64,000 nt of DNA from a virus (IMGVR_UViG_3300042402_007915:64001-128000), one strand, 5' to 3'; positions 3 through 60,020 are shown, counted from the first letter of the stretch. Notes: generated from the letters alone by a model not told the origin. Program-made: numbers and translations.

Positions 3-2573
3 CAGCAGGTTAACTTCATGCGAGAGATCCTCTCCAGAAAAGTAGGTGGAACCGCAACCCGTAGAACCCTTGAAGGCCTTACGACTGTAATGGCTTCGCA
101 GATCTCTGCTCCAATTGATGGCGCAAGCAAGATGCCTTCATTCACGGTCAATCAGTTGCTCAAAGAGGCCAATACGCCTACCGAATTCAAAGAGTTAATG
201 CGTAAAAACGAGAACGGCTTCTTTATCGATTTTAACAACGAGGAAGACCTCAATAGTTCAATCTTCAGAGAGGCAGCCCGCGAGAAGTACGGCAATGATA
301 GACGCGTTTTCATTGCTGGAAAGCGTACTATTGAGAATATGAAGGGGACCGAGATCAAGCAGTCCAACCAGACAGTCAAGGTTGCCTCTGCGTACGAAGA
401 GATGTCTTCCGAGTTCTTCTCGCAGATTAAGCAGCTTACGTCTAACTCTGACAATACAACCGTTGGCGATGTAATTAAGACGATGGACAGCTACAAACAG
501 CAGACCACGCGTCTCTACACGTCGACTTTGCACCAGGTTACTCGTGGCAAGATCAAGGGCAATACTATGGGTATTGTCCACTTTACTGGTACTGAATACG
601 ATATGGAGACAGCTACTGGAACCCAGAGAATGAAGATGGCTCTGAGTTCAACGCAGAGCGCCTATCAACGTGCCGCCGAAGAAGCCACCAAGAAACAAGT
701 TGTATTTAGAGATACCCTTCAGTTCCTAAACAATCTTACGGACTACATGAACGTAACAAAAGACAAGGGTGAGCTTGGGGCCTCGCTTCGTAATTTTGCA
801 TTGGAAAGTGCTCAGCTGCTTCGAGACAGTAAAGCTGGCGTTGCTACTACTGCTCAAGGTGAATGGGGCCTTATTGCTCGTGCCCCTGCTCTTGCTGCTG
901 GTAACTTCAGGCTCATGGCCTCGTTTAGGTCTCCGCATGAAATGAACGAGAGCGTAGATCCCCTATTCCGAATGATTAAGGATTCAAAGTCAGCACGTAA
1001 AATACTTCACAAGTTTGAAGAAGACGCAGGCCTTGTGACTGTTACCGAGAAGAAAGTCACCAACAAGAAAGGCGAAGAAGTCGTCAAGCAAATCCGAAAG
1101 GGCACCCCAGTAGAAAGCTTTGATCAGCTACTTGACCTTGAGAAACAGCATCCTAACTTAGTTCGGACACTGTTTGAGGACTTCGCTGCAAACCTTAGAC
1201 AGTGGAATAGAGGTACCGGCGGCGGCTCTGTATTCATCGTCAAGGATATGGCGAACGCAAAGATTGACGGTAAAGTGAGGCCAGTGGATCTTGGTTTCGC
1301 TACTGGATCTCTTGCGGACGCAGACGGTGACTGGGCCTCTTTCATGACGCTGTCTAAAGAGCAGCGGAAAGTGATTGCAGCTAAGATGGCAGATCCAACT
1401 TCAGCTGCAGCGTATATTGCAGCACAGCAAGACCAAACTATTGCGTCAAGCGTATACGCAGAGTACGCAAAGAAAGGGCTTGTTTCGACTGGTGTCCTTA
1501 ACGAAACCTCAGATGAAATCCTGCGGAAGGACTTACTCAAGGAAAAGACTTCGGCTTCGGGCACCGGTAGCGTTGACGTTGCGTTGAACAAACTTCGTAA
1601 TGCAAGCCTTGCTTTCCAAACTGAAGACCCTCGTTTGCTTAGGGAAATGGTTCCGCTTTTTCAGATGCTGGAAGAGCACACTACGATTAAGTCTAAGAAG
1701 CTTGCAGACTTCAAGCCATGGGCAGAGCGTCTTTCCGCGTCTGTTGACGAAGCATTTCGTAGAGACAATATCGCTCCTTTTGCTAACTTCCTAAAGACAG
1801 AGATCTTTCCAGAAGCTGACATGAAGGAGCTTTACGCAGGCTTTGACGTTGAAGCAAGCGGGAGAACTACTCGCATTGAAGGTTTGGATGCAATCTTTGG
1901 TTACCTGCAAAAAGCCATCGTAAATGCCAAAGCGAATAAAATCGACCTTATGGCTACACCGAACATTGCAGCAACAACACTCGCTGGTGATGAAGTTGGT
2001 GTCGCAAGAGAATTGTTTGCCGCCATCACTTCAGGCAAAGCAACGATGCAAAGCGGTATGGCTGCTGAGTTCTTCGGAGACAGGGCTAACCAGAACTTAG
2101 CTAAAGCAGAAGTGCTGAGACAGGCCGCATCTAACCTGATGGACAAGATAGATGTTCGTGGTGCAGGGCTTGCTGTTGGGGCCCTTGCTTTGGGGGCTAT
2201 TACTGTAGGTGCTGTATCAGGCGGCGCCACCTCTTCTCCTCTCATGGTAGAAGGTGAGATGCCTGTTGCAGGGCTTAACAGAGCAGTTTCTGATGGTTTC
2301 CTAGAGGGAAGTGAAGCTCGTGGGATGAGTGGTGGGCCCATGTCAGACGTATATGACATGACAAACACTCCTCAAGGTCATGGTGTGACTTACATGTCAG
2401 GTGGGGCTGGGTTTGACATTAGAGGCGCGACCAGTTCCTTGGCCAACACTGAGACCAGTAGGGCTTTCATCAATTTAGTAACAAAAGGAAATGCTAGAGG
2501 TTCTGTTGTTATCAATGATACAAGAAGGCCTATTACGCCAAACTACTTGGATCGTCTTAACGGAGAATACTAA
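3..2573 (+). CDS. 5'-truncated giant virion protein with two-barrel RNA polymerase beta-prime-like catalytic region (putative virion RNAP, tape-measure position)
   Basis: Frame is open to the window edge (QQVNF before the Met at 18). GLIARAPAL (~867-893) resembles RpoC LLNRAPTLH; LADADGD (1311-1331) resembles NADFDGD; hydrophobic GAGLAVGALALGAITVGAV near the C-terminus; TAATG overlap with the hub gene. Confidence 0.68.
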   Translation, partial: QQVNFMREILSRKVGGTATRRTLEGLTTVMASQISAPIDGASKMPSFTVNQLLKEANTPTEFKELMRKNENGFFIDFNNEEDLNSSIFREAAREKYGNDRRVFIAGKRTIENMKGTEIKQSNQTVKVASAYEEMSSEFFSQIKQLTSNSDNTTVGDVIKTMDSYKQQTTRLYTSTLHQVTRGKIKGNTMGIVHFTGTEYDMETATGTQRMKMALSSTQSAYQRAAEEATKKQVVFRDTLQFLNNLTDYMNVTKDKGELGASLRNFALESAQLLRDSKAGVATTAQGEWGLIARAPALAAGNFRLMASFRSPHEMNESVDPLFRMIKDSKSARKILHKFEEDAGLVTVTEKKVTNKKGEEVVKQIRKGTPVESFDQLLDLEKQHPNLVRTLFEDFAANLRQWNRGTGGGSVFIVKDMANAKIDGKVRPVDLGFATGSLADADGDWASFMTLSKEQRKVIAAKMADPTSAAAYIAAQQDQTIASSVYAEYAKKGLVSTGVLNETSDEILRKDLLKEKTSASGTGSVDVALNKLRNASLAFQTEDPRLLREMVPLFQMLEEHTTIKSKKLADFKPWAERLSASVDEAFRRDNIAPFANFLKTEIFPEADMKELYAGFDVEASGRTTRIEGLDAIFGYLQKAIVNAKANKIDLMATPNIAATTLAGDEVGVARELFAAITSGKATMQSGMAAEFFGDRANQNLAKAEVLRQAASNLMDKIDVRGAGLAVGALALGAITVGAVSGGATSSPLMVEGEMPVAGLNRAVSDGFLEGSEARGMSGGPMSDVYDMTNTPQGHGVTYMSGGAGFDIRGATSSLANTETSRAFINLVTKGNARGSVVINDTRRPITPNYLDRLNGEY

Positions 2574-5500
2574 TGGCTCTCAGCCCCAACCAGCTCCCCT
2601 ACGTTGTTGATGTATTCACACCGGTAGGAGAAGAGGACCTTTACAGTCGCAAGGACGTCTTCATCATTAATGACATTGGCTTGATCATCCCGCCAATGGC
2701 TATCTCTATCCAGAAGGAAGATCTTTCCTACACCTGGAAAATGCTGCGTTCTGCTACTACTACCAAGCTCCCCACTGGGCATGGAGCTATTCGTATTGGT
2801 ATCACGATTCCTTTTTTGAACAATCACATCTTGGACTTTCACCGACTTCTTGTTCAGATTCGGCATAACCCTTTTGTTTATATCGAAAACAGGTATCTGA
2901 GAGAGTCAATCATTCCCGAAGCCCCAAGTTCACAGAACATGGCCTTTGGCGTGGACTCTGTTAACATTGCAAGCATGAACGGAACTGCTGACGCTTGGGT
3001 TCTGCAGCTAAACCTAAGTTGGTTTAACTACGCACCCTTTGGACCGAACTTCCTATTCAGGCGAGAGTGGGAAACAGTAGACGTAAATGAAATGAACTTT
3101 GCAAGCTCCTCAGACCCTAACGGGGAAGAGGTTCCGGTAATCGTTCGTAAGAGTATTGGGTGGCATCTCCCTGACGAGTACGGCAGGAGAACCCCGCGGC
3201 CCTGTATTACTTCAATGCGTTATCTTAGGGATGATAGCTTTGGTACAAGCGACTCTGAGACAGGAGAGTCAACTCCAGTAAACGACTTCGACACCACAAT
3301 CCCTAGTCCGATGACTTTGATTGATATGGAGTATGTTCACAAGGGTTTCGAGTGGGACTTGCTGCCTAAGATTTCAATGATGAGTAGGTCAGCGCCTTCT
3401 GTCTTCCCTGCTTCCTCAAGGATCTACACACGGTTCTATAACTACCTGCAGAGAGACGCACTAAAGGAAAACTTTGGCATTGACCTTGAGGGAATGCTTA
3501 GGGACCAAGGCGGCAATGTGGATGGCTACTTTGGTGTTTGGGATCCAACCAGAGCTGACCGTCTCGAAACGTGGTCTCTGCATAATGGTCCAAGAATGCT
3601 AGGGGCCTCAGAAGAGGAGCGCAAGCGCGAGATCGCTATATGGGCTTCTGTAATGTCATCCGTCCGAAGCGCCATGTTTGATATGAACGGACCTCTTGTG
3701 GTTGGCTTCCATTTGTACAAAGAAGTACGAATGCCAGCAGAGTGGGCCAAGGCTCTTGGCGATATGATTCGGGTAAAGAACACAGCGTCCCAGATGGCCT
3801 TGGATGAGAAGATCAACAACCCACTCAGCCCTGAACATCAGATGGATTCAATTACCTACCAAGACCCAAGTACTGGGAACTGGTACGTCATGGAGAAGAA
3901 GTACGAGGGTGGCCCTCTTAGTTGGAAGCCAAAGCTCTTCTCTCAGACTCCAGGGAACCTCCAGGGCCTTTCAACACCCATTGGCGTAGGCGGACGTAAG
4001 GCTACGTTTGCCGAGGTCTCAGCCGTCTCTGGACAGGGCATAGCGACTCGAAACTTTCCTGTTGCAGGTTCAGGCAGGACACTCAAGTCTGGTGAGCTTA
4101 GGGCACACTTGGGCTTGGACTTGTCTCCGCTGAGCAAGAGTGAAAGCACTTACGTCTATCCGGTTAAGGATGGCACCGTACTTAAAACCACTCAATACGA
4201 AGCTCTTAAGGGTACTTGGTATTGGACTTCAGATAGTGGAGTCACTGAGCCCGTTAGTGCTAAGCATTTAAGTCGTCTTAAAGTCGTGTTTAAGACTTAT
4301 AGCGGCTTCTTCTTTGGAGAGGGTGTAAGCCCTGAGTTGTACCTTCTTGGAATTGGTGACAACTTTGTTGGTGCCCAAAGTTACCTCGAGAAAGGAAGGG
4401 TTGGCTCGGTTTACCGCTGCGACTATGTTGGTACTGGGTGGGAAGAGTCTGGTTGGTTTTGGATTAACGGACCTTCTTCTGGTAACACAATTACCATTCA
4501 GCATGGAGATGGAAGCGTCTCTCGGTACATGCACCTTGAATCAATTACCAAGGGGCTGAGGGCCGGAGTGCCTGTTAGTGTTAACACCGTTATCGGTGTG
4601 ATGGGGCAAAGTGGAACCTATGCTTCTAACAAAGTTGCAGACTTCCTAACGACGAATGGCACAAGTGAGATTCGGTCTCTTGGGGCGGCAAACGAAAACT
4701 TAGCGTCTTTTGGGATTCATCTTCACCTTGAGTACGAAGAGCCTTTCAGGAACTCCCTCTGTGTTCCTTCAAGGGTCTTCACTTATGAAGGTGAAGTGGT
4801 TGATCCGGGCAAGACCCCTTCAACTGTTCTAGTTAACCTAAAGCAGATCTACAAGCATTTTGAAGATAGGCAGGCTGTTACTATTCCGGAGGACTACGTA
4901 GCTCCCGAGTACAAAGAATACATCGCGGAAGCGACGACAAAGGCCATCTTGTCTGAAGACTCAACAAAGCCTAAAACGCAGACAGAAGAAGAACAGCTTC
5001 AGTCCGTGGCCCAAGAGCTTGAGGACTTGGTGGAAGACGGATGGGCTAACTACGGCGGGTCTGGTGGTTTGGGTAACGTCTATGAAAAGGCGGTCTTCTT
5101 TAATTTCCGTACCGACCAAGCAAGTGCTATCAAGCTTCCGGAGAACCTAGTTTACACCTTCCAAGACACGTTCCTTACGGGTGTTAGTGCTTCTTACGGA
5201 GCCATTCTCTCAAGGATCCCTCTGCTTGGGCACGAGTACCCAACGCTTCAGCACCTAGGTTCAAACGAACCGTCTTATTCTTTTGAGTTTGCAGCTTTGG
5301 ATACCGAAGAGACTCTGGACGGAGTAAGCTCTGGAGTTAGAAACCTTGAGTCAATGAGGGCAAGGCTTCAGAAGAATGCGCGACTCTTTAGAGAGGTTCC
5401 CAATAGCTGGTCCTGTCTCATGGATACATTTCTCACTCGCCTAATGGGTAGCTACAAGGAGACAGACGTTGTCGTAGATAGTCCAGGAGAAGGACTGCCT

Positions 5501-8500
5501 TCTCGCTTGATGATGAAGAAGAGAATGAACCTCAGCCGTACCGAGGTCGGAACTATCCAAGGAAACCCCGGCGCCTCTTTCTATACGGTAGAGGCAGAAG
5601 AGACAAACGTCTTTGAGACAGAAATCCTAAAGAACACTAACAGTCAGTTCACGACAATTGAGAATGCAAGGCAAACGGTACTTCATAAGCTCCTTAATCT
5701 TGAAGTAAAAGATGTGGAGAATGAAGCTCTTACACTGGCTATCGCTAAAGCATTAGCACCACAGGCCCTTGATCCTGCAAACCCAATGTATGGGATTATC
5801 GATTTAAGCAACCAATCTCTCCTGAACTCTGACCTGTATCTTCCAGGGCCAGAAGACAGTAGCTCCAAGCCAGACAACGGTAGTCTTGAGAATCTGGTTA
5901 GCTTTTTGATGGCAGAGCGAGCCAGCGGAGAAGTGTATAGCGTTCTAGAAGAAACAGAGCTAGGCGGCTTGCTGGGAGAGTTCCCCAAACAACCATTCGC
6001 AAAGGCTGAAGAGCAGTATAGTGCTGACAAAAACAAGAGCGGAATCGTAGTAGATTTGACGAAGCTTACAGGCGTGACTCTTAACGATAGCTTCTTAGAC
6101 ATCAAGGAACTGCTTGCTAACAACGGGGGTCCCGAGGGGGCAGCCGCTTTCCTGCAGATGATGGACCTCCATTTCCTCCTCAAGGCTCTCATTGAAAAGA
6201 GTTGCATTGTACTTGCAGAAGACAAGTCTAGAGCAAGCGGTACCTATCCAGACGGCGGTTTCACTGTTGAGGAGGCCAGAAGTGAGCTCTACCAAATGCC
6301 TATCACTCCAAGCATGTGGAGCCTGTTTACTGAATACGAAAGGGTCTGTGCACAAAGGTTCTCTCTTGATGTAAACGGCTTTGATGTCCTGGAGGGAAAC
6401 TCAGAGGGCGCAATCGCAACGCTAGAAAGCAATGCTAACTGGAATACCTTTGAGCCGGTAAAGGACGGAAGCGAAGCCTACGTCAACAAGCTTACTATCG
6501 AAGCTAGAAAGGCTGGTCTAAGTGTGACCAATCTTCACTTGGCCTTTGACACTGTAGAGATCCTAACCTCTTCTGCCGTAGAAGGAGCTGCTGATACTGC
6601 ACTCGGGTTTGCAAGCTACATTCCAGGCGCAAGCCTCGCTATCGACCGCAATGGAGAGTCTGAAGGTCTTCTCGGAACTCGTATGTTTGACGCAAGTGTA
6701 AAGAACGCACTTAGTGAAGCTCATGAGTTTTTGGTTGAGGGATACATTAACAGCATCTTCAAGTCTGCTATCGGTTTGACGGAGACCGCAAAGGCTTACG
6801 GCCAAGAGTTTATCTTTAGGCCTCTCCAAGCACTTGTTACTTCTTCGAGCACTGGATATTCGCCACTCGACAACCCTATCGGAGCATTCACCAAGCACGT
6901 CGAATCTTCAGGTTATTGGGGCTATGGTTTTCACCACTTCCTTGGTTTAGGGCCAAACACTGGCGGTCTCACTTTCTGGGCGGCAAACCCAGAGGACTAT
7001 GTCATCGTTTACGACAAGAGCTACGAAGCTGGTAGGGCGCAAGTAACTAAGCAAATCTACGAAGGTGTTAACGGTAGCATGGCCACAAATGCTTTTGCCG
7101 CAATTGCTTCTCTTGCCAATGGTTCTCTACAGCCTTTTGATAACTCTAACATCACACAGTGGAACTCTCCTTTGGAGTGGAAGGTTACACGGCCAGAAGA
7201 GAAGGACAAGGTTGACCAGCTCAAGAGAGAGTTCTCCTCTCTCGCGGACAACATCCTAAACAACTACAACCTGCTCAAGTTATTTGGTTTGGAGAAGTAC
7301 ACCAATGTCCTAAACAACGAACAGTACCTCGAAGGAACAGAGGCGTATCCAGACCTTAAGCTGCCAGCCCATCCTTTCTACGGAACGGTGAAAGATACCG
7401 GGCCCGACTTCTATTACTGGAACGTATACGAAGACGGACAGATGCTTGACGCACAGGTTGTAAAGAGTGTTGAAGCTTCGATGGATGAGGTCGTTAAGAA
7501 TGCGTATCAGAGCATGCGACGGTTCCAGTCGGGTGAAAAATACAACCCGGTTAAAGACCCAAGTACCAACTACTCCAAAGACGTAGCACAGGCTGCTCAA
7601 GGGGTCATTCTGTTTAACGCAGAAGCTACTGACGGGAACAGCAACAACCCTGCAAATAAGGGTCGTACTTCTATCAGCTTCTACGAATACGAAAAGACTG
7701 AACAGATTGCAGAGTTTGAGAATGCCCTCACTGGAGCAAACGGAAAAGAAATCCTGAAGAGGCATCCAAAGATTCCAAACCTGTTTGGTACTAGTGGCAT
7801 CTCAATCGGTAGCGAGTTCATGCCGGATAATTTTGCTCCCATTAAGCAGCAAGACCTGGAGAACCTAGAGAAGACTCTTGAGGAAACTCAGAGCATGTTT
7901 GGATCTCGAAGTGGATACCTGAAGGAGAAAGTGGGCAACCCTCTTACTCGAGGTCTTGAGGGAACCAACAGAGCCTCCACTCCAGACATCACCGGGCATA
8001 GCTGGACTATGGAATCGCTTCAGGGTCTTGCGAAGGAAAGCGCAAAAGACATCTTCTCCCAGAAGATGACCATGGCTAGAGCCTACCCAACCTTCAAGCT
8101 GTTCTTTGTAGAGGAAGATGAGATTGAAAACGCTCTGATTTCTCTAGACGACTTCCACTCGTACAACGGTGTGAAGGACTTCACCTTTGTAGAATCAAAG
8201 GATTCACCGGCCAGTGTAGCTGTCATTTCTCTCCAGAACGTCTCAGGAGTGCTTGACGGAACAAAGAGAAACGTCGTTACTGACTTGGACTACTTTGACC
8301 GGAAGATCACTAAGTCCCTTGAGAAGAACCAGTCGCACCTCCAAGGAGATGTGCTTACGGAAGGTACTGACTACGAACAGCCGTTTGGCTCTGTCGTTCT
8401 ACGTCCAGGCCTAAACGTACAGCTTAGAGTTGGCTATTCAAATGACCCCAAGAACCTCTCGGTCCTCCTCTCAGGTCGTATTGTCGATATCTCTTGGAAC

Positions 8501-11479
8501 AAGAATAACGACCTTGCTGAAATTGTAGTCCAGTCCTTTGGAACAGAGTTGATTCAGCAAAAGAAGGAAGACACCGAAGTCCATTACACGACTCACCACC
8601 TACTCTCGCATCTTATGCTGTCTCCAGAGTTAGTTCACTTTGGTCGGTGGGAGATTGGAAAGCTCTTCCAGACTGGCGAAAGCAAAGACGCGCGTATGGA
8701 CTTTACGAACTACGCCCGTGAGGGTTTGGCTGGTAAGTTTGCGTTCACTACTTGGACTAATGAGTTTCTTGCCAACAATACCTACATCCTTGTCGCTCTC
8801 GGTATGGCTTCTGCTGTAGCGTCATTCTTCCCTGCCGGTAAGCTCCTTGGAAAAGCAGGGGCGGCTGGAGCCGCTGCTGCAAGCGGAGCCGCAAACGCCT
8901 CTAAGGTTGGTAGGATGACAAGCTGGGTCAAAGAATTGCTCTTGAAGGCAGCAGACACCCTTCCAGCAAGCAAGAGTGCCAGCCTTGCTAGACTGTTCAT
9001 CACACCAAGCAAAGAGTTCAGACTAACACAGCTTATCGAAAAAGAGGCGGCAAAGGTTGCAGCAACTTCAGGACGGGGACTCGCACCAAGCATTCAAAAT
9101 CTAATCGCCCAAGGGAATATAAAGTTGGTCGAAAAGCTTTTGATGAAAGCGGTGAAAGAAGACACCGTTTACCTCAGAAGCTTGATTAAAGCGCTCAACA
9201 ACAAAGAGGCAAACGATGCTGTCGCCAGGGCCTATGCTAACTACTTTAGCGCAAGAAGCGCAGCAGTAACTGCTGGCTCTATCGATAACGCGATTGCAGC
9301 AGGAGTTCAGTTCAGGTCTGAGCTTCAGTACATCTACGGAAGCATGAAGGTTCTAGATGCACCTGCGCTCTCTATCAAAGAGGTTGGCAAGGTAATCTGG
9401 TCGAACAAAATGGGGGCGCTAAAGGCGGGAGGATTCTTTGCGGCTCGGACTGTAGGAGGAGGTCTAACGGCAGGTAGTGTTCTTGCTGCGGGTGCCGTGG
9501 GAGGTGACTTCCTTGCTATGACAGACACGGCCAAACGAATCCGAGACCAGTACCTCTACTATCTATCAAGGTTCCTAGCCGCAACTGAAGTGTCTCTGAT
9601 GGTTTCGCCTCAGGACGACAACATCTTTGCACCTCATCCGAAAGACTACATGGACCTTAAGATCGGAGGCATCCTTGAAGGCTTAAGCCGTACTGTCACC
9701 TATGCGAGCGCCTCTATCCTTCTCCAGGACAACGTAATCGCTAATGACCTTGCCAACCTTGTAACCCTTAAGGGTTTGTTTGATAAGCGAGTCGACCCAC
9801 GCGCTTGTCAGTACTCACTAAACAAATCCACTATCTGGGAAGTGTTCCAAGAGATGAGCTACAGACACCCTGGTTGGGTTTATGGCGCTCGTCCTTATGG
9901 TACCGCCTTCAGGTATACCATGTTCTTCGGAGTGCCTTCACAGCGGTACTGGAGCCAGCCAGGGAGTGATAGCTTTATCACTCGCATGAACCAGCTAACT
10001 CGTGTCCTAGAGAAAGAGGGACCTGCTAAAGAGTCCAGGGTAACAGAGCAAGAGTACAGAGAGCTGTACGGAGACAACCTGCACGGAATGACGATTGCTG
10101 ATTGGTATGCCATGAACCCAGGTATCAACCTTGAAACTGAGTTCAAGGGCGTTGCCATGAAAGAGTATCTGAAGGGAATGGAGGCTAGATTCGTGCCCTT
10201 CAGAAGACATCACCACCTGTCTGCTCATACCGACATCGTCTGGAATGGTTTGCTTTCGTCGGAGAACGCTGCATCAAATGCAATCAACGTTCATTACTAC
10301 GAGACTGGAAGCAACCCAGAAATCGCTGGTAACCAAGTAGTAAAGGCGCACAGCTTCATCCCGCCACATATGACAAGAGTTCACGATATGCCAATCTATC
10401 GTAACTGCAAGTCGGACAGGATGGCTCGTAGATACGCGCTAGGTGGCTTGATGGAGCAAATGAAGAAAACGTACAGAGGTGAAATCCTTGTCGTAGGTAA
10501 CGCTCGTATCCGCCCTTGGGATATTGCTATCCTTTGTGATAGCTACAACGACATGTATGGTCCGATTGAGGTTGACCAAGTGGTGCATACATTCAGCTAC
10601 GAGACTGGATTCGTAACCGAAATTAAACCAGCAGCAGTCGTCATCGCAAATGAGATTTCTTCTTGGCCGCTTATCGAAGCCGCAAAGATTGCTTCTCTTG
10701 CAATTGAGGACATCACTCTTAAAGCAAACTCAACCCGTAGCTCCAAAGCTTTAGCTAACGCTAACGGACTGAGCGCTCTCACCAAGGGCACCTATGGTGT
10801 AGATGCAATGCTTTCACTTGCTCGTGACTTCTCGCAGGAAGAGATAGTTACTCTTAAGAGCCGCTGGCTTTCTCTCTCTAGGAACTCTAATAGCCTCTAC
10901 AACGCTCTCGAGGAAGACCCAGAACTTGCTTCTGCCTTGAGTGAGTTGGATCCTGGAATCGCTGCGGGCTATGAGACTGCACTGGCTAGCGCTTCAGTCG
11001 CAGTGGCTCTGACTGGTACTGCTCTCGGGCTTGGTACTTTGGCTTTGGCACAAAAGAGCGGAATAACAAGCCTTGGTTCAAAGAACTTAATCACGGGTGT
11101 TGCCGGTTTGGGTACTTTGGTTGCGTCCGGTGCGCTTTGGAGCGCTTCAAACATGACGCCTCCGTCCCTAATCAGCCTCCTGGGTGGTTCAATCCTCTTC
11201 CTGCAAACCATGAAGGAGGAGAGCATGATGCTAATTCCGCTGGTAAAGAGTGGCCGCCCTATTGTCTCCGGTTTGTCTCTCAAGGACCCATCTATCATGT
11301 GGAAGAACTTCAAGGGTAATATCACCAGAGAATTTGAAGATACTTTTGACGGCCTGCAAGACCTGCAAACCCTCTTTAACAAGTACCAAACTGGTGCCTG
11401 GGAGAAGATTGTAGAAGCCTCAGAAGAGGCCTCATACGACAGACTGAAGAGCAACAGGATTGATACCAGTACGCCCTAG
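2573..11479 (+). CDS. 2968-aa multidomain baseplate hub / tail-tip protein with M23 peptidoglycan endopeptidase
   Basis: M23 motifs HLGLD, GNTITIQHGDGSVSRYMHL, IGVMGQSG, HLHLE (~4100-4735); hub-like LRPGLNVQLRVGY...GRIVDI and VGNARIRPWD...VDQVVHTFSYETGFVT; several hydrophobic Gly/Ala helices. Confidence 0.8.
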   Translation: MALSPNQLPYVVDVFTPVGEEDLYSRKDVFIINDIGLIIPPMAISIQKEDLSYTWKMLRSATTTKLPTGHGAIRIGITIPFLNNHILDFHRLLVQIRHNPFVYIENRYLRESIIPEAPSSQNMAFGVDSVNIASMNGTADAWVLQLNLSWFNYAPFGPNFLFRREWETVDVNEMNFASSSDPNGEEVPVIVRKSIGWHLPDEYGRRTPRPCITSMRYLRDDSFGTSDSETGESTPVNDFDTTIPSPMTLIDMEYVHKGFEWDLLPKISMMSRSAPSVFPASSRIYTRFYNYLQRDALKENFGIDLEGMLRDQGGNVDGYFGVWDPTRADRLETWSLHNGPRMLGASEEERKREIAIWASVMSSVRSAMFDMNGPLVVGFHLYKEVRMPAEWAKALGDMIRVKNTASQMALDEKINNPLSPEHQMDSITYQDPSTGNWYVMEKKYEGGPLSWKPKLFSQTPGNLQGLSTPIGVGGRKATFAEVSAVSGQGIATRNFPVAGSGRTLKSGELRAHLGLDLSPLSKSESTYVYPVKDGTVLKTTQYEALKGTWYWTSDSGVTEPVSAKHLSRLKVVFKTYSGFFFGEGVSPELYLLGIGDNFVGAQSYLEKGRVGSVYRCDYVGTGWEESGWFWINGPSSGNTITIQHGDGSVSRYMHLESITKGLRAGVPVSVNTVIGVMGQSGTYASNKVADFLTTNGTSEIRSLGAANENLASFGIHLHLEYEEPFRNSLCVPSRVFTYEGEVVDPGKTPSTVLVNLKQIYKHFEDRQAVTIPEDYVAPEYKEYIAEATTKAILSEDSTKPKTQTEEEQLQSVAQELEDLVEDGWANYGGSGGLGNVYEKAVFFNFRTDQASAIKLPENLVYTFQDTFLTGVSASYGAILSRIPLLGHEYPTLQHLGSNEPSYSFEFAALDTEETLDGVSSGVRNLESMRARLQKNARLFREVPNSWSCLMDTFLTRLMGSYKETDVVVDSPGEGLPSRLMMKKRMNLSRTEVGTIQGNPGASFYTVEAEETNVFETEILKNTNSQFTTIENARQTVLHKLLNLEVKDVENEALTLAIAKALAPQALDPANPMYGIIDLSNQSLLNSDLYLPGPEDSSSKPDNGSLENLVSFLMAERASGEVYSVLEETELGGLLGEFPKQPFAKAEEQYSADKNKSGIVVDLTKLTGVTLNDSFLDIKELLANNGGPEGAAAFLQMMDLHFLLKALIEKSCIVLAEDKSRASGTYPDGGFTVEEARSELYQMPITPSMWSLFTEYERVCAQRFSLDVNGFDVLEGNSEGAIATLESNANWNTFEPVKDGSEAYVNKLTIEARKAGLSVTNLHLAFDTVEILTSSAVEGAADTALGFASYIPGASLAIDRNGESEGLLGTRMFDASVKNALSEAHEFLVEGYINSIFKSAIGLTETAKAYGQEFIFRPLQALVTSSSTGYSPLDNPIGAFTKHVESSGYWGYGFHHFLGLGPNTGGLTFWAANPEDYVIVYDKSYEAGRAQVTKQIYEGVNGSMATNAFAAIASLANGSLQPFDNSNITQWNSPLEWKVTRPEEKDKVDQLKREFSSLADNILNNYNLLKLFGLEKYTNVLNNEQYLEGTEAYPDLKLPAHPFYGTVKDTGPDFYYWNVYEDGQMLDAQVVKSVEASMDEVVKNAYQSMRRFQSGEKYNPVKDPSTNYSKDVAQAAQGVILFNAEATDGNSNNPANKGRTSISFYEYEKTEQIAEFENALTGANGKEILKRHPKIPNLFGTSGISIGSEFMPDNFAPIKQQDLENLEKTLEETQSMFGSRSGYLKEKVGNPLTRGLEGTNRASTPDITGHSWTMESLQGLAKESAKDIFSQKMTMARAYPTFKLFFVEEDEIENALISLDDFHSYNGVKDFTFVESKDSPASVAVISLQNVSGVLDGTKRNVVTDLDYFDRKITKSLEKNQSHLQGDVLTEGTDYEQPFGSVVLRPGLNVQLRVGYSNDPKNLSVLLSGRIVDISWNKNNDLAEIVVQSFGTELIQQKKEDTEVHYTTHHLLSHLMLSPELVHFGRWEIGKLFQTGESKDARMDFTNYAREGLAGKFAFTTWTNEFLANNTYILVALGMASAVASFFPAGKLLGKAGAAGAAAASGAANASKVGRMTSWVKELLLKAADTLPASKSASLARLFITPSKEFRLTQLIEKEAAKVAATSGRGLAPSIQNLIAQGNIKLVEKLLMKAVKEDTVYLRSLIKALNNKEANDAVARAYANYFSARSAAVTAGSIDNAIAAGVQFRSELQYIYGSMKVLDAPALSIKEVGKVIWSNKMGALKAGGFFAARTVGGGLTAGSVLAAGAVGGDFLAMTDTAKRIRDQYLYYLSRFLAATEVSLMVSPQDDNIFAPHPKDYMDLKIGGILEGLSRTVTYASASILLQDNVIANDLANLVTLKGLFDKRVDPRACQYSLNKSTIWEVFQEMSYRHPGWVYGARPYGTAFRYTMFFGVPSQRYWSQPGSDSFITRMNQLTRVLEKEGPAKESRVTEQEYRELYGDNLHGMTIADWYAMNPGINLETEFKGVAMKEYLKGMEARFVPFRRHHHLSAHTDIVWNGLLSSENAASNAINVHYYETGSNPEIAGNQVVKAHSFIPPHMTRVHDMPIYRNCKSDRMARRYALGGLMEQMKKTYRGEILVVGNARIRPWDIAILCDSYNDMYGPIEVDQVVHTFSYETGFVTEIKPAAVVIANEISSWPLIEAAKIASLAIEDITLKANSTRSSKALANANGLSALTKGTYGVDAMLSLARDFSQEEIVTLKSRWLSLSRNSNSLYNALEEDPELASALSELDPGIAAGYETALASASVAVALTGTALGLGTLALAQKSGITSLGSKNLITGVAGLGTLVASGALWSASNMTPPSLISLLGGSILFLQTMKEESMMLIPLVKSGRPIVSGLSLKDPSIMWKNFKGNITREFEDTFDGLQDLQTLFNKYQTGAWEKIVEASEEASYDRLKSNRIDTSTP

Positions 11480-18771: not shown

Positions 18772-20960
18772 TGGCAGACAAGCTTAAATCTGGTATCTCA
18801 GTTGTACCTACATTTGTAGATGGAGAGGCAGTCAGAGCTGCAAAGCTTACTGCTATTACCGCCCAGCTTCAGCGTGCAGTTTCTAACCTAGAGAAAGCGA
18901 TTGGGGACATTCATGATGAGTCCTTCCCCTATTCGTCTGCTGCTGAGGCAAGACTGTCACCCCCATGGGGACGGTCTCTAACTCTAAATGAGTCTTTCCT
19001 TGACGCTGGACGGTCTCTAGACATTGTGAACTTGGCGCGTTTTGTTGGTCCCGCATCAAACCTAAACCCTACCATGCCCGCTACATCTAGGACGATTGTT
19101 GAACCAACGCCAACAAGCGCTCATTGCTTCCAGCTTAAGTTTCCAGCCAACACTGTTACTTCAAGCACTGATGCATCATTGACTACAAAGGTTGCAAGTC
19201 TCAACCTGCTTAATGCGGCAGGCGAATACTTCTATGATGCTGATACGAACAGCATCTACTGTGTGACAGCAACAGCTGGTGGAACAATTACTTACACAAC
19301 TGTTCCGTACACCTACGCAGGTGGAGCAAACTATACTGGTGCCAGATTCAACGTCATCCCAGACCCAAATCAATTGCATGAGGGCGGAGACGGTTGCGAC
19401 GTCTCGGCTGAGCTTGACTCTGAAGGACGCCACCTTATTTCTCTCCCGGTCATCTCTCATACGCAGAGGAGCTTTTCGGAAGCAGATGTTGCTCTAACCA
19501 GCCTAGATCCTCTCTACCAAGACCAGCTCTTACTCCCCAAGGTACTAGTGGACAACTTTACAGCCGGGGATACGATCCCAGCTGGGTTCCTAATGCTGAA
19601 GAACTGGACTACTGGCAAGGTCTACGACTCGGCAACTTATACGTACATCGATTCTGAAAGCTTCTACATCTCAGGGGTTGACCTAGAAGAAGAGGTGGCC
19701 AACGGAGATCAGTTCATTACACTGACGGTCGGAACTGACATTACTACGTCCATTGACGACCTTAGAATGAAAATGGGCCTCCACTCTCACGATGGTCGGT
19801 TCGGGGAGCAGCACATTGAAGCTGGCACTATTACTGGTTGGACTACTAACGCTGGACCTAGTGGCGTTTACATGCCTTCCAGCATTGCCAACAACCATGC
19901 CCCACAGTATCTCCTTCGAGACGGCAAGCGTACAGATAACTCTCCCCTCAATGACGACAATGCCATGAGAGGAGATATTTGGTTTGGACTTACGGCGGGA
20001 ACTCCTGGAGCTTACCTTCCCCTCCTCTCTAGCGGCGAAAGCTATGGTGTTCGGTTTGGCGGTTCGGGATGGCGCATCTACAGAAACAGCTCTGACGACC
20101 TTGTCATTACAACCCCTGCGGATGACCGCGTAAAGATTGAGACTACAAAGAACGTAGCCTTATTCACTCCGGTGAAGATGTTTGCCGGCTTCAACATAGA
20201 GACGGTTGAACTAACAAGCGGTTCCAAACCAGATGGCCAATACTGGGGTAGTTACAGCTTCGAGGAAGAAGCTCATGGCATTGCCGGTCATAACGTAGAT
20301 GCCACCTTCTCTGGGATTTATGTAGGGCCAACTTCTAACGAGTGGGGCGTTGATAGACTTCCTGCTTGGGATATTGATCGTCATGGAACCGAACATAGTG
20401 TCAGGGCGGAACAATCCTGGTGTACTTGGCCAGGAAGTGTAAGCGTCGCTGGCACCGTTAGTGGGAGTGCCGCTGCTGACTATTGGGTGGTTCCTAAGAT
20501 TCAGATTATACACGTTGGTCTTCAGAGTCTGAAGGTAAACTTCAAAGACAGCGGCGGAAGTAACGCAGCTACTTGGGCTGATGTTCAGTACGCAGTAACA
20601 GATGCTATCCCGCTTCCATCAGGCCTAATGCATTACCACGTTATCGGCATCATGGGTATGCTTCATCAGCCCGATATCGGAGCTAACGCCTGGGAGACGG
20701 GCTACACAAACATTAGAGGCCAAGCGCTCAGCCATATTGCCTTTAGGATTGTAAGCGGAGAAGTATTCGCCACCATCGACTGTGACACTGGCTCGGATTC
20801 AAATAATCCTTACTACTGGTCCAACTGGATGGATGCGGAGGGAGATACGTCTGGCGACGCACCGAACTCCTCAAGCATCAACTATGTAGACGTGAAGATT
20901 ACGCTTCTCATTGCAGCTCCAGAGAAAACAGGAATCACGAATATCTACGAGAGAACCTAA
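18771..20960 (+). CDS. Putative tail fibre / receptor-binding protein
   Basis: 729 aa, Gly/Ser/Thr-rich; HSHDG and HAPQYLLRDG...MRGDI fibre-like motifs. Confidence 0.55.
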   Translation: MADKLKSGISVVPTFVDGEAVRAAKLTAITAQLQRAVSNLEKAIGDIHDESFPYSSAAEARLSPPWGRSLTLNESFLDAGRSLDIVNLARFVGPASNLNPTMPATSRTIVEPTPTSAHCFQLKFPANTVTSSTDASLTTKVASLNLLNAAGEYFYDADTNSIYCVTATAGGTITYTTVPYTYAGGANYTGARFNVIPDPNQLHEGGDGCDVSAELDSEGRHLISLPVISHTQRSFSEADVALTSLDPLYQDQLLLPKVLVDNFTAGDTIPAGFLMLKNWTTGKVYDSATYTYIDSESFYISGVDLEEEVANGDQFITLTVGTDITTSIDDLRMKMGLHSHDGRFGEQHIEAGTITGWTTNAGPSGVYMPSSIANNHAPQYLLRDGKRTDNSPLNDDNAMRGDIWFGLTAGTPGAYLPLLSSGESYGVRFGGSGWRIYRNSSDDLVITTPADDRVKIETTKNVALFTPVKMFAGFNIETVELTSGSKPDGQYWGSYSFEEEAHGIAGHNVDATFSGIYVGPTSNEWGVDRLPAWDIDRHGTEHSVRAEQSWCTWPGSVSVAGTVSGSAAADYWVVPKIQIIHVGLQSLKVNFKDSGGSNAATWADVQYAVTDAIPLPSGLMHYHVIGIMGMLHQPDIGANAWETGYTNIRGQALSHIAFRIVSGEVFATIDCDTGSDSNNPYYWSNWMDAEGDTSGDAPNSSSINYVDVKITLLIAAPEKTGITNIYERT

Positions 20961-23041
20961 TGGCTAAGCTAACCTTAAAGCTTCTTGCTAGTGGAGACGC
21001 CGATAACAAGATTGAGTTGTCGGCGCCGTTCCATGTTCACGTACATAACAATGTCGAGCAGTTCTCTTTCTCTAGGACCCTCAAAGAGGGACATGTACCC
21101 ATCGCCTACTTAGAGAATGAAGCAATCACACCTACCAAGAACTTGAGCCTAGTGGAAAGGTACTACGTTGCTCCTGGGTTCGTACCTGAACGTGTAGAAG
21201 ACCCCCTGAGGGCTGGTAAAACGTTTACAAGCGTCGCGTACAGCTCACCCTATAGACGAGTCCTCATGACAAACCAGACGGCCCAGAACGAACGTGGGAG
21301 ACTTGTACCGCTATACAAGAAACACCTTGTACCAACCGGAACAACAAGGGTTGAGATCCGCAAGGTCTCAACCGAAAACGATCCGAAACTAAATGCTGAG
21401 TTTAGATTTGACGCAGACACTTTGTCCGTCTTCAACAACTTCAAGAATCGCTTTGACACCGAGACTGAATACACCATTTACTTTGTAGACTGTTTTGGTG
21501 CGTATGGGAAGATTACTCAGATATTGAATAACGTCCCTGCGGTTTCAGAGGCAACTTGGGAAGACATTGACCTTGAGACTGGTGCGTTAAGAGAGGGGCT
21601 TTCCGTTTACACAGTAGAGAAGAACTCTGATGGCTACACTTTCTACTTGAACGTTGGAGACAAGTATTGGGTCAAAGCTAATGACGAGTACATGATTCGT
21701 CCAGTAAAACCCAAGACGTTAAGCTACAAAGACTCTTGGTATATGCAGTTCTCGGCTGGGGAAGTAGTTGATTTTCACAATGGCCTTACCATGCGGTATA
21801 GCGTTCCTGAGATTAGTACCCAGCCCTATACGCCCTATGCTCCTTACATGTTTGCAAGTCAACAGACTGGATTGCAGCTAGATGAAAGCCTGTTGTACCT
21901 TGGGAGAAAGAGATTGGCGATTAAGCCTGAAATGGGTCTCCACTTGGTAGTAAAACTGCTTGACGGCAATGGTCTCCTAAAGCGTGTCCTTACTACTCAG
22001 AGCTCCAAGAACGGATTGCCTTATAGCGGTGCAGTAAAGTATGAGTATGGTTCTATTGCGTCTTGGTCGAATGAAAGCGGCCTTGTCGTTCTTAATGAAC
22101 AAATCGGCACTAACACTCAGGTGGAAGCGTCCTTCTATTACGAAGCCGATCTTCTTAACTACACGGGTATCAATCTCAATCCCTTTACCGACTCTAGGAT
22201 CCTAAACCACACTATTGTGTTCTACATTGTTCCGAACGTCGTTGATGGAGAGCGGGCTATCCACCATCTGATTGTTGACTCTTCAGGGCGTATCGTTTAC
22301 TCCTCGCAAGGTCCGGGCGCAAGCTCTTATCCAAACCTGCAAAGACTCAACACTGATGAGTCTTTCAATGACAATACAGTTGTGGGTATGGCTTACCAAG
22401 ACGAAGAGGACGATTCCTTTTACGGCCTCTACTGCTTTGGCCAAGAGAACAACTTCGGGTATGTAGTCCTTGCAGAAGTTTCTTACCAAGACACTCAGCA
22501 CGTTAGCGATGTTAAGTCAGTAGATGTTCTTCCAAAAGGTGGTGTTCCTAAAGACAGAGTGTTCACGTATACACGTAACCCCAAACTCATTGAGTCAGCA
22601 AAGTCTTGGAGTCCTAGAGGAAGGAAGGTGGTGCGAAGTGGAGTGCTCTTAATAGAGGCGCCCCTTTCTCTTCTCCAGGACTATGGCGGCAGGCTCACCC
22701 TGCAAGAAGCAGAAACCCTGTTGACACAAAGAGTCGACATGTCAGTACTGCCTGTAATCGAGTGGACCTACCCTAAGTGCATAGTCAACGTAGATACAAC
22801 CGTTGAAAGTGAAGTTAGCTTTGCTTGCTCGTTCGAAGGTTTATACACCTACAACCTATACAGAAAAAACGAAGACGGTATATTTGACCTTTACGATAGC
22901 GTCGCAGTAACCGAACGAGGTGACATCAATTTTCTGGTTGATGAACTTAGCTCTGGGGCTGTAGAAACCTTCAGATTGTGTTTAAGCTATGGTGAGATTG
23001 AGTATCCAGCTTCTTGTGAAGTAACAGTTGAGGTGAAATAA
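20960..23041 (+). CDS. Hypothetical virion structural protein
   Basis: 693-aa coupled ORF in the structural operon. Confidence 0.6.
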   Translation: MAKLTLKLLASGDADNKIELSAPFHVHVHNNVEQFSFSRTLKEGHVPIAYLENEAITPTKNLSLVERYYVAPGFVPERVEDPLRAGKTFTSVAYSSPYRRVLMTNQTAQNERGRLVPLYKKHLVPTGTTRVEIRKVSTENDPKLNAEFRFDADTLSVFNNFKNRFDTETEYTIYFVDCFGAYGKITQILNNVPAVSEATWEDIDLETGALREGLSVYTVEKNSDGYTFYLNVGDKYWVKANDEYMIRPVKPKTLSYKDSWYMQFSAGEVVDFHNGLTMRYSVPEISTQPYTPYAPYMFASQQTGLQLDESLLYLGRKRLAIKPEMGLHLVVKLLDGNGLLKRVLTTQSSKNGLPYSGAVKYEYGSIASWSNESGLVVLNEQIGTNTQVEASFYYEADLLNYTGINLNPFTDSRILNHTIVFYIVPNVVDGERAIHHLIVDSSGRIVYSSQGPGASSYPNLQRLNTDESFNDNTVVGMAYQDEEDDSFYGLYCFGQENNFGYVVLAEVSYQDTQHVSDVKSVDVLPKGGVPKDRVFTYTRNPKLIESAKSWSPRGRKVVRSGVLLIEAPLSLLQDYGGRLTLQEAETLLTQRVDMSVLPVIEWTYPKCIVNVDTTVESEVSFACSFEGLYTYNLYRKNEDGIFDLYDSVAVTERGDINFLVDELSSGAVETFRLCLSYGEIEYPASCEVTVEVK

Positions 23042-23490
23042 TGGCGGCTAAAGATATCACATTTGAATTCGATGGGGATCCAATCCAGTCTCCCCAGGCC
23101 TTAGAGTCGGGGACTTCTGTTACGATTCACATTGTGAATTCAGGAGAAGAGGACCAAGCCACCCTTGGGATGTTTTTGGTACCCGCAGATAACCTCGGCA
23201 CTTGGGAAGATGCTTCCGAAGACGCTCCTGCAACGGATTACCAGACAGTTCTCACTTGGGGCACTAATACTGTCCTTGAAGAAGATACCCAGGGTGGTCT
23301 CAAGGTTACCTACCAAAATGGAGAGGGAGAAGTCACGACTTACTTTACAAGACTACAAGGCTCTCTTTACGAGAATAGGATCGAGCTGCTTGAGCTTGAG
23401 GTTGGAGAGTCACACGAGATTACCCTTGAGCTTGAAACCCCAACGGGAGAAGCTGCTAGAAAAATCTACGTAAGCCTAGCCGTGGAGTAA
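23041..23490 (+). CDS. Small acidic beta-sandwich virion protein
   Basis: 149 aa, coupled, GAGGTG upstream. Confidence 0.55.
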   Translation: MAAKDITFEFDGDPIQSPQALESGTSVTIHIVNSGEEDQATLGMFLVPADNLGTWEDASEDAPATDYQTVLTWGTNTVLEEDTQGGLKVTYQNGEGEVTTYFTRLQGSLYENRIELLELEVGESHEITLELETPTGEAARKIYVSLAVE

Positions 23491-40701: not shown

Positions 40702-41553
40702 CTAAAAGATGTATCGTATTGTCTTCGGGTCGAAGAACTCTGAATAGACTTTGGTGAAGTCAGCAATGTACTGACGCTTCAAAGACCACTTATACCTGAT
40801 GTTGTCTGGGGCGTACTCCGAATCCTTTTCCTCCTGGATGTCTGGTTTCCACAGCAAAGCACGAACGTCTTCAGAGTTCCGTTCGTGTTGGTGTTTGTTG
40901 TGCGTGAGGAAGATACATTCACATTGGGTTTTGATTCCGGCCACAGAGACTTGCCTGAACAAGTCTCTGTAGTGGTCAAGCCAGCCTGGTTCAACAATGA
41001 TCGGGCTGTAGTTAATGTGGACTTCCATGTGTTGGCTTAAGGGAAGGATAGTCTGAATACGTTTGGCAATAGGGTCTGTGCCTAGCTCCAGTACGTCAGA
41101 ATAGGCCTGAGGCATTAGGCTTACCCTGAGTCGATGCCTTTCTGGGGCGAGCTCATAAGCTTCAGGATTGAACCTGGAGGGATACTTAGTAGCGAAGGTG
41201 CTCTTGAGGTCTGCACTGGCATTGAAGAACTGAAATACTGGACGCCAATCATACAACCGAGACATGAGAGGAACGTCCGTACTGCAGCCAATATCAATAG
41301 TGTAATACTTTGGATCTACTTGATTAGGTATCTTGGCTAGAGGCTGTGTATCGCGCCACCTCTTTATGCTCTCAAGGATCTGTTCTACATTCTCATTGAA
41401 ATAAACCTTATCAAAGTTATACCGACCAACATAGCAATAAGACCGCATGCAGCCGCCAAGACACCCATAAATGAAGTTGGGTGAGATGGCGTCTGAGCTG
41501 CGGCCGTTATCCCTAGTAGTTAGAGTCTTTGTCTTTTGATGGATTAATTTCAT
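40702..41553 (-). CDS. splB: Spore photoproduct lyase (SplB)-like radical SAM protein
   Basis: SSDAISP...GCLGGCMRSYCY, PNQVDPKYYTIDIGCSTD, FATKY, RLRVSLMPQ, VHINYSPII. Confidence 0.8.
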   Translation of the reverse strand: MKLIHQKTKTLTTRDNGRSSDAISPNFIYGCLGGCMRSYCYVGRYNFDKVYFNENVEQILESIKRWRDTQPLAKIPNQVDPKYYTIDIGCSTDVPLMSRLYDWRPVFQFFNASADLKSTFATKYPSRFNPEAYELAPERHRLRVSLMPQAYSDVLELGTDPIAKRIQTILPLSQHMEVHINYSPIIVEPGWLDHYRDLFRQVSVAGIKTQCECIFLTHNKHQHERNSEDVRALLWKPDIQEEKDSEYAPDNIRYKWSLKRQYIADFTKVYSEFFDPKTIRYIF

Positions 41554-59974: not shown

Positions 59975-60020
59975 GCAACCTCCTTGGGGGAAAATGTCTG
60001 CCCATACCGAAATTTCATCT
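59899..60020 (+). repeat. Left copy of imperfect direct repeat flanking the methyltransferase
   Basis: GTTCGTAA..AAAGTCTTTATCCACAAGAGCGACTCG..TCCTTGGGGGAAAATG; core 59912-59938 is 24/27 identical to 61615-61641. Confidence 0.75.

What the first reader, a model, noticed from the sequence alone, without database searches (positions are those of the whole stretch)
3..1750. Hidden two-barrel RNA polymerase catalytic region inside a giant tail-operon protein
Seen: motifs in RpoC order. VTRGKIKGNTMG (cf. LLGKRVDYSGRS), WGLIARAPAL (R at 879; cf. LLNRAPTLH), GSLADADGDWASF (D1317/D1323/D1329; cf. YNADFDGDQMAV), KEKTSASGTG (cf. bridge helix KTANSGY) and LEEHTTIKSKK (trigger-helix position). Established: DxDGD plus an upstream RxP is the Mg-binding signature of double-psi-beta-barrel RNAPs, and giant single-chain virion RNAPs exist (crAss-like phi14:2 gp66, Thermus P23-45 gp96). 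Inference: this is the beta-prime half of a very divergent virion-packaged RNAP, with the beta-like barrel upstream of the window. An automatic pipeline would probably call it hypothetical or tape measure.
Basis: partly seen in the sequence, partly recalled or inferred. Interest (0 to 1): 0.9.

Follow-up and report, generated by a model that had tools for sequence, protein, structure and literature searches.

The report
RNA polymerase in phage tail operon
A 1,767-residue protein, encoded where this large contractile-tailed phage should have its tail "ruler" gene, is a very diverged one-chain copy of the cell's RNA polymerase core, and the genome also holds a matching row of promoter-like signals and a second polymerase, so the phage probably injects this enzyme to start its own transcription, a strategy shown so far in a Thermus phage with a different kind of tail.

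Summary
Confirmed. The window holds residues 912-1767 of a 1,767-aa ORF in a 147-kb 0305phi8-36/ME3-like myovirus. In 59 aligned relatives (18% mean column identity), 11 columns are invariant, among them K678, K686, P1206, D1350, D1352 and D1354; R1204 is kept in 57 of 58. The AlphaFold model (pLDDT 91) maps residues 501-887 onto Rpb2/beta and 945-1600 onto RpoC; best match QDE-1 (Z 10.1, modest). It is a single-chain two-barrel RNA polymerase.

The gene sits between the gp145-like gene and the baseplate hub, where 0305phi8-36 has its mass-spectrometry-detected gp146. The genome also encodes a second, YonO/RdRP-like polymerase. Upstream of it lies a conserved array of terminator-overlapping CCTTTTTNTTTCTATGG elements, the layout of P23-45 virion-polymerase promoters. 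Virion delivery is inferred (about 70%); activity is untested.

The logic is known from P23-45 gp96. I found no paper on this family; its motif spacing exceeds the published survey filter. Cultured ME3, WH1 and KLEB27-3 have motif-bearing proteins in the same slot. This scan has noted the same kind of gene in at least 27 genomes.

The parts
3..2573 (+). C-terminal 856 aa (residues 912-1767) of a 1,767-aa single-chain two-barrel RNA polymerase. The ORF starts 2.7 kb upstream of the window (G000 61270). The beta-like barrel with K678/K686 (residues about 501-887) lies wholly upstream of the window.
102..545 (+). Clamp-like connector (residues about 945-1092), aligned to the N-terminal clamp part of RpoC/Rpb1
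   Evidence: RpoC 24-1355 and Rpb1 from about residue 20 align from model residue 445; connector median 208 aa in the family
546..1353 (+). Beta-prime-type double-psi barrel (residues about 1093-1361), with a helical insertion of about 100 residues (1221-1318)
   Evidence: DPBB domains 7dww and 7dbo superpose on model 597-862, rmsd 2.9 A; DSSP
879..887 (+). R1204-x-P1206 motif (RAP; RHP or RNP in relatives)
   Evidence: 57/58 and 58/58
1317..1331 (+). Catalytic metal-binding loop D1350-A-D1352-G-D1354 (DFDGD in 22 of 58 rows)
   Evidence: each Asp 58/58
1509..1614 (+). Bridge-helix equivalent (residues 1414-1448; K1424, E1425, G1433 conserved)
   Evidence: 35-residue helix in the model; conservation. 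Assignment rests on order and superposition range.
1629..1704 (+). Trigger-helix/loop equivalent (E1469 58/58, K1474 57/58, K1476 56/58)
2145..2220 (+). Hydrophobic Gly/Ala segment about 138 residues from the C-terminus; putative membrane anchor
   Evidence: Kyte-Doolittle window 1.93; above 1.6 in 33 of 43 full-length relatives, at a nearly fixed distance from the end
2352..2570 (+). Conserved terminal domain (DxRRPITxNYxDRL); putative virion-assembly tag
   Evidence: most conserved block outside the active site; weak in-register match to the C-terminus of 0305phi8-36 gp146 (hmmsearch E 0.006 among 14 sequences; hhalign E 0.0014)
2573..11479 (+). Baseplate hub-like protein (gp147/ME3_37 homologue, M23 peptidase), coupled by a TAATG overlap; context

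Best explanation
The protein is a catalytically intact single-chain, two-barrel DNA-dependent RNA polymerase that is built into the particle with the tail module and delivered at infection. Shown by computation: fold, invariant active-site residues, conserved slot between the gp145-like gene and the hub, and a conserved hydrophobic segment plus terminal domain. Inferred: (1) the terminal domain recruits it during tail assembly, and it travels through the tube, probably unfolded, ending anchored at the envelope; (2) it reads the class I elements (CCTTTTTNTTTCTATGG, G000 24.3-28.8 kb) in front of small terminator-separated pre-early genes near the presumed first-entering end; (3) it thereby expresses the second, YonO/RdRP-like polymerase (G000 18831-23054), which reads class II elements (CCCC-TTCG-GGGG-N-GTTC, 4.7-23.1 kb). 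My odds: two-barrel polymerase fold 97%, active RNA polymerase about 90%, virion-delivered about 72%, reads class I about 55%.
For: Invariant residues. Model pLDDT 90.7, pTM 0.90. The top 18 of 48,161 chains are all two-barrel polymerases, with beta-type chains on the N-half and beta-prime-type chains on the C-half; Foldseek's top 44 PDB rows are all RNAP subunits. The same run of gene sizes around the gene in all relatives' contigs with enough flank (looser in 86). Flanking genes match 0305phi8-36 gp145 and gp147; the slot gene there, gp146, is annotated as a virion protein identified by mass spectrometry. ME3_36, WH1 gp095 and KLEB27-3 gp034 in the same slot carry RxP and DxDxD. BFVD hits at E 1.5e-7 and 2.8e-6 have lengths equal to half of WH1 gp095 and ME3_36 (identity inferred from length, plus the organism name for ME3). 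Second polymerase: RFP...DDDGD, ESM Atlas 0.96 to PF05183 clusters; both genes lie on one contig in a relative. Class I: 7 strict copies on one strand versus 0-1 in shuffles, conserved upstream of the second polymerase in two other phages. Sigma-70 sites there are not above chance, while terminators are. P23-45 gp96 promoters have the same terminator-overlapping layout (PMC10770324).
Against: No activity, proteomics or transcript data. Structural scores are modest (Z 9-10, rmsd 4-5 A; no Foldseek PDB hit at E <= 0.001). The sequence link to cultured slot proteins is not significant over the polymerase part and weak at the C-terminus. gp146, the only slot protein with a mass-spectrometry note, carries a DEDDh-like exonuclease motif and no DxDxD. 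A folded enzyme of about 1,100 residues with a clamp cannot pass a tail tube, so unfolding has to be assumed. Class I T-runs double as terminator tails. Genome ends are not determined.
Confidence: 0.68

Rival explanations
1. It is an active RNA polymerase but not delivered by the particle: it is made late from the tail operon and works in the cell, for example on late genes, while class I genes are read by the host or by the second polymerase.
For: No virion data for this family; the enzyme is large and has a clamp-like part; phage operons can hold non-structural genes.
Against: Conserved membrane-like segment and terminal domain shared, weakly, with virion protein gp146. The second polymerase gene lies behind terminators in a region without sigma-70 excess, so something must transcribe it first. 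A late-expressed enzyme cannot start its own operon.
Confidence: 0.14
2. It is virion-delivered and active, but its main job is mechanical or replicative: pulling the genome in by transcription at the membrane, or making RNA primers, rather than promoter-specific gene expression.
For: Membrane-like segment; the slot is exchangeable with a DEDDh-like exonuclease in 0305phi8-36 and MTATph1, which points to DNA handling at entry; the best structural match, QDE-1, has dual template use.
Against: The conserved class I array in front of ribosome-binding sites fits promoter-directed transcription; the phage encodes its own DnaG primase-helicase.
Confidence: 0.11
3. It is a structural tape-measure or ejection protein with a dead polymerase fold, or the fold match is a coincidence.
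For: Slot annotated as tape measure in 0305phi8-36 (PMC2147016); no Pfam, PHROG or PDB sequence hit; modest Z scores.
Against: The invariant columns are the catalytic ones; a dead enzyme would not keep them at 18% mean identity. The model is a compact alpha/beta enzyme, not a helical tape.
Confidence: 0.07

Closest known systems
Thermus phage P23-45 gp96, tape-measure-fused virion RNAP, with non-virion RNAP gp64 (Chaban et al. 2024, PMC10770324; PDB 8H2M/8H2N, P74-26 gp62 8F5M)
   Same: Single-chain two-barrel core encoded at the tape-measure position, with membrane segments; a second polymerase in the early region; T-rich elements overlapping terminators, one per small gene, leading to the second polymerase gene.
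   Different: Contractile-tailed phage; 1,767 aa, mostly polymerase, against 5,002 aa mostly tape; clamp-like connector of about 208 aa against a clamp-less enzyme; not the closest structure (gp96 Z 6.4, gp62 Z 8.5, QDE-1 Z 9.5-10.1); the peptidase is on the next gene; the two polymerases here show no detectable kinship.
Neurospora QDE-1 / plant RDR2 (PF05183) and YonO-like phage enzymes (0305phi8-36 gp99)
   Same: Single-chain order: beta barrel, beta-prime barrel, bridge helix close behind the Asp loop; best whole-chain superposition (Z 10.1, rmsd 4.2 A, 345 residues).
   Different: No PF05183 hit and no profile match to gp99; a 100-residue insertion in the catalytic barrel; membrane-like segment and tail-operon location. 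The genome's other polymerase is the PF05183-like one.
crAss-like phi14:2 gp66 virion RNAP (own knowledge; also described in PMC10770324)
   Same: Large single-chain virion-delivered two-barrel RNAP for early genes.
   Different: Podovirus ejection protein, not a tail-operon gene of a myovirus; 6VR4 was not among the listed structural rows (inconclusive).
0305phi8-36 gp146 slot proteins (ME3_36, WH1 gp095, KLEB27-3 gp034, MTATph1 CDS27)
   Same: Same slot between gp145-like and gp147-like genes; similar C-terminal layout; ME3, WH1 and KLEB27-3 versions carry RxP and DxDxD.
   Different: Annotated as hypothetical, structural or tape measure; gp146 and the MTATph1 protein have a DEDDh-like exonuclease motif and no DxDxD; RxP-to-Asp spacing is about 35-40 there and 107 or more here.

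Membership tests
Two-barrel (DPBB) RNA polymerase superfamily | DxDxD Mg-binding loop in a double-psi barrel | tested here: met
   58/58 at each Asp; DPBB domains superpose on residues 1097-1361, rmsd 2.9 A
Two-barrel (DPBB) RNA polymerase superfamily | [RK]xP motif in the same barrel, upstream of the Asp loop | tested here: met
   R1204 57/58, P1206 58/58 at the end of a barrel strand. Spacing is 107 or more in all 58 rows, beyond the 20-100 filter of the published survey.
Two-barrel (DPBB) RNA polymerase superfamily | Second barrel with two conserved lysines | tested here: met
   K678 and K686 52/52; Rpb2 736-1060 aligns to residues 501-887, Z 9.3-9.4
Two-barrel (DPBB) RNA polymerase superfamily | Bridge helix and trigger loop after the catalytic barrel | tested here: met
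   helices 1414-1448 and 1454-1472 with conserved G1433, E1469, K1474, K1476; RpoC alignment range covers them. Residue-level equivalence was not displayed.
Two-barrel (DPBB) RNA polymerase superfamily | Active-site geometry (Arg, Lys and Asp residues converge) | not testable with these tools
Two-barrel (DPBB) RNA polymerase superfamily | Template-dependent RNA synthesis | not testable with these tools
   needs an in vitro assay
P23-45 gp96-type tape-fused virion RNAP | Encoded at the tape-measure position of the tail module | tested here: met
   sheath, tubes, chaperone-slot genes, gp145-like, this gene, hub
P23-45 gp96-type tape-fused virion RNAP | Fusion to a long tape with a metallopeptidase | tested here: not met
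   core 501-1600; only 167 residues follow; M23 is on the next gene
P23-45 gp96-type tape-fused virion RNAP | Flat, clamp-less architecture with a short connector | tested here: not met
   connector 199-215 aa, aligned to the RpoC clamp region
P23-45 gp96-type tape-fused virion RNAP | Present in the virion | not testable with these tools
   uncultured phage; only the slot analogue gp146 has a mass-spectrometry note
P23-45 gp96-type tape-fused virion RNAP | AT-rich promoter array before the non-virion RNAP gene | tested here: inconclusive
   an element with this layout exists and is conserved, but start sites are not mapped
YonO / PF05183 single-subunit RNAP family | Sequence match to PF05183 or gp99 | tested here: not met
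   no Pfam hit; profile A2 against gp99 scores below 0 bits
Classical tape measure protein | Long, mostly helical, repetitive chain that sets tail length | tested here: not met
   1,100 residues fold as a compact alpha/beta enzyme; residues 1-500 were not modelled

The most novel reading that the evidence does not exclude
0305phi8-36/ME3-like myoviruses use the gene after gp145 as an exchangeable enzyme-delivery slot. A fixed C-terminal anchor carries a clamp-bearing two-barrel RNAP, a DEDDh exonuclease, or both, through a contractile tail. This would be a second, independent origin of tail-delivered transcription, with its own promoter class, testable in cultured phages (ME3, WH1, KLEB27-3).
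Probability: 0.5. Interest if true: 0.8.

Novelty: new variant of a known kind. Interest (0 to 1): 0.64.

Why it matters
It would extend tail-delivered transcription from one Thermus siphovirus group to contractile-tailed phages, and reassign a gene annotated as tape measure or structural protein in cultured phages, including the Acinetobacter phage ME3. It adds a deeply diverged RNAP family that profile searches and the published motif filter miss. The candidate promoter (class I) and a second polymerase with its own element (class II) make the transcription programme directly testable. It also raises the question of how a clamp-bearing enzyme of about 1,100 residues passes a tail tube and refolds.

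Tried and rejected
Pfam, PHROGs and PDB sequence searches with the protein or its profile: nothing. tblastn of INPHARED phages: nothing meaningful. ESM Atlas on the whole protein: no usable hit. Foldseek PDB: no E <= 0.001. phi14:2 gp66 did not appear among listed rows, which does not exclude it. Profile comparisons with ME3_36 and WH1 gp095: not significant. The two polymerases of this genome compared with each other: no match. AlphaFold of the second polymerase: pLDDT 43 from 5 sequences, unusable, not searched. Search for longer fused forms covered only 4,450-5,000 aa and found none, which is weak evidence. Class I motif in cultured relatives: at control level. Profile A3 in cultured relatives: no match. 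PMC2171028 is not held. Literature searches found no paper that calls this family or ME3_36 / WH1 gp095 / KLEB27-3 gp034 an RNAP; Chaban's supplements do not list them by the names and accessions I searched. Subscription journals are mostly not searched. 'True tape measure' was rejected for this protein; which gene sets tail length is open.

Full report
Observation. The window is G000:64001-128000 of a single 147,225-bp virus contig. The frame at 3-2573 is the last 856 residues of a 1,767-aa ORF (G000 61270-66573). Pfam, PHROGs and PDB sequence searches find nothing. DxDGD occurs four times in the genome's six frames, so the motif alone proves little.

Family and conservation. Searches gave three close relatives and 65 representatives at 50% clustering, mostly 1,650-1,830 aa. 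In a 59-row alignment with 18% mean column identity, 11 columns are invariant: G564, K678, F680, K686, P1206, G1319, D1350, D1352, D1354, G1433, E1469. R1204 is kept in 57 of 58 rows. The loop reads DFDGD in 22 rows. K678 and K686 are eight residues apart, as are the two beta-subunit lysines K1065 and K1073 of E. coli RNAP (own knowledge). The RxP-to-Asp spacing is at least 107 residues in all 58 rows (143 here), because of a helical insertion in the barrel. The survey in Chaban et al. filtered on a spacing of 20-100, which this family would fail.

Structure. AlphaFold2 on residues 501-1600 gave pLDDT 90.7 and pTM 0.90. Against 48,161 solved chains, the top 18 matches are all two-barrel polymerases. 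Beta-type chains (Rpb2 736-1060) align to residues 501-887 and beta-prime-type chains (RpoC 24-1355) to residues 945-1600; QDE-1 aligns across the whole (Z 10.1, rmsd 4.2 A, 345 residues). Isolated double-psi barrels superpose on residues 1097-1361 at 2.9 A. Scores are modest, and Foldseek gives no PDB hit at E <= 0.001, although its first 44 rows are all RNAP subunits. What carries the case is the agreement of fold, order and invariant residues. The connector between the barrels is 199-215 residues and aligns with the RpoC clamp region, unlike clamp-less gp96. I could not measure active-site distances.

Gene position. The order is sheath, tube-like genes, two chaperone-slot genes, a 1,365-aa ORF, this gene, a 2,968-aa hub-like gene with an M23 peptidase, and baseplate genes. 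Relatives keep the same run of gene sizes (looser in 86). The flanking ORFs match gp145 and gp147 of Bacillus phage 0305phi8-36 and their counterparts in ME3, WH1, Edson, KLEB27-3 and MTATph1. The slot gene in 0305phi8-36 is gp146, 'hypothetical tape measure', noted as a virion protein by mass spectrometry; it was assigned mainly from tail length. ME3_36, WH1 gp095 and KLEB27-3 gp034 carry RxP and DxDxD. gp146 and MTATph1 CDS27 have no DxDxD and carry a DEDDh-like exonuclease motif instead; KLEB27-3 has both. The first and third BFVD hits have lengths equal to half of WH1 gp095 and ME3_36; that identity is my inference. The family has a hydrophobic segment about 138 residues from the end and a conserved terminal domain that weakly matches the gp146 C-terminus in register. 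The protein is too short outside the core to be a tape itself.

Second polymerase and signals (outside the window). G000 18831-23054 (-) encodes a 1,407-aa ORF with RFP and DDDGD, conserved in relatives, scoring 0.96 to PF05183 clusters; its model was unusable. A relative carries both genes on one contig in the same divergent layout. Between this gene and the packaging module lie small leftward genes, each preceded by CCTTTTTNTTTCTATGG: 7 strict copies, all on one strand at 24.3-28.8 kb, against 0-1 in shuffles, and the same element upstream of the homologous polymerase in two other phages. Many copies follow a terminator hairpin directly, but some stand apart from it, so the element is more than a U-tract. 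Sigma-70-like sites in the region are at chance level (4 against 4.7) and terminator-like sites are enriched (32 against 10). The mapped gp96 start sites of P23-45 follow 'ttattccttta', often overlapping a terminator, one per small gene up to the gp64 gene. A second element, CCCC-TTCG-GGGG-N-GTTC, has 12 copies from 23.1 to 4.7 kb on the same strand (shuffles 0-2) and is conserved in relatives. It may be the second polymerase's promoter or a 5' UUCG RNA hairpin.

Mechanism. Most likely the protein is assembled into the tail through its terminal domain, passes into the cell envelope ahead of or with the DNA, refolds, and transcribes the class I units on the first-entering end, including the second polymerase gene. 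Fold, residues, position and the two element classes are shown computationally. Packaging, passage, promoter assignment and the position of the genome end are inferred.

Comparison. It works like P23-45 gp96 but is not a member of that family: it fails the tape-fusion and clamp-less tests and is not its closest structure. [quoted passage not shown] It is not a YonO/PF05183 protein by sequence. I found no paper describing it. This scan has noted the same kind of gene in at least 27 genomes; those notes are not independent evidence.

Verdict. Real, correctly read, and a new variant of a known kind. Interest 0.64.

Noticed in passing
G000:C1:18831-23054 (-), locus L002:1834-6054: Second single-chain polymerase (RFP...DLQGDDDGD; ESM Atlas 0.96 to PF05183 clusters), candidate non-virion RNAP, with about 600 extra C-terminal residues.
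   Followed up: partly
G000:C1:24270-28840 (-), locus L024: Class I element CCTTTTTNTTTCTATGG before small terminator-separated genes; conserved in L017, L019, L020.
   Followed up: yes
G000:C1:4720-23090 (-): Class II element CCCC-TTCG-GGGG-N-GTTC, 12 strict copies, conserved in relatives; promoter or 5' RNA hairpin.
   Followed up: partly
L009:14624-22237, L011:12513-16442, L013:13004-20308: 0305phi8-36 gp146 and MTATph1 CDS27 carry a DEDDh/DnaQ-like exonuclease motif in place of the polymerase; KLEB27-3 gp034 has both. The MTATph1 gene appears split by an IS21-like element.
   Followed up: partly
L001:7183-11280 and its homologues: The length ratio of the slot protein to the gp145-like protein is 1.24-1.32 in eight of nine phages, even when the cargo differs, as if both scale with tail length. 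P0063 is the exception (1.74).
   Followed up: no
L001:7183-11280 (G000 57183-61280): The upstream gp145-like ORF directly follows the chaperone-slot genes and has a faintly similar terminal domain (E 0.016); it may be the real tape measure or a paralogue.
   Followed up: partly
BFVD hit A0A172Q0S6: A second, 798-aa ME3 protein matches the polymerase model (E 1.3e-6); possibly ME3's non-virion RNAP. Microcystis phage MaMV-DC A0A075BUT7 and a siphovirus 'minor tail protein' A0A8S5SD80 also match.
   Followed up: no
window 56235-60064 (-) and G000 127906-129165 (-): DNA polymerase III alpha-like gene without a PHP hit, next to a metallophosphoesterase; a PHP-like N-terminal piece (HLHVHTAYS) is a separate ORF at the window's right edge, with a C5 methyltransferase between them on the other strand.
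   Followed up: no
window 40702-41553 (-): Spore photoproduct lyase-like radical SAM protein (Pfam SPL, E 3e-6, just below cut-off).
   Followed up: no
G000:C1:30602-33742 (+): 1,046-aa protein with a staphylococcal nuclease domain just before the terminase gene.
   Followed up: no
G000:C1:13239-13360: Short tandem repeats (AACTGCAATGGGATAA, 3-4 copies).
   Followed up: no
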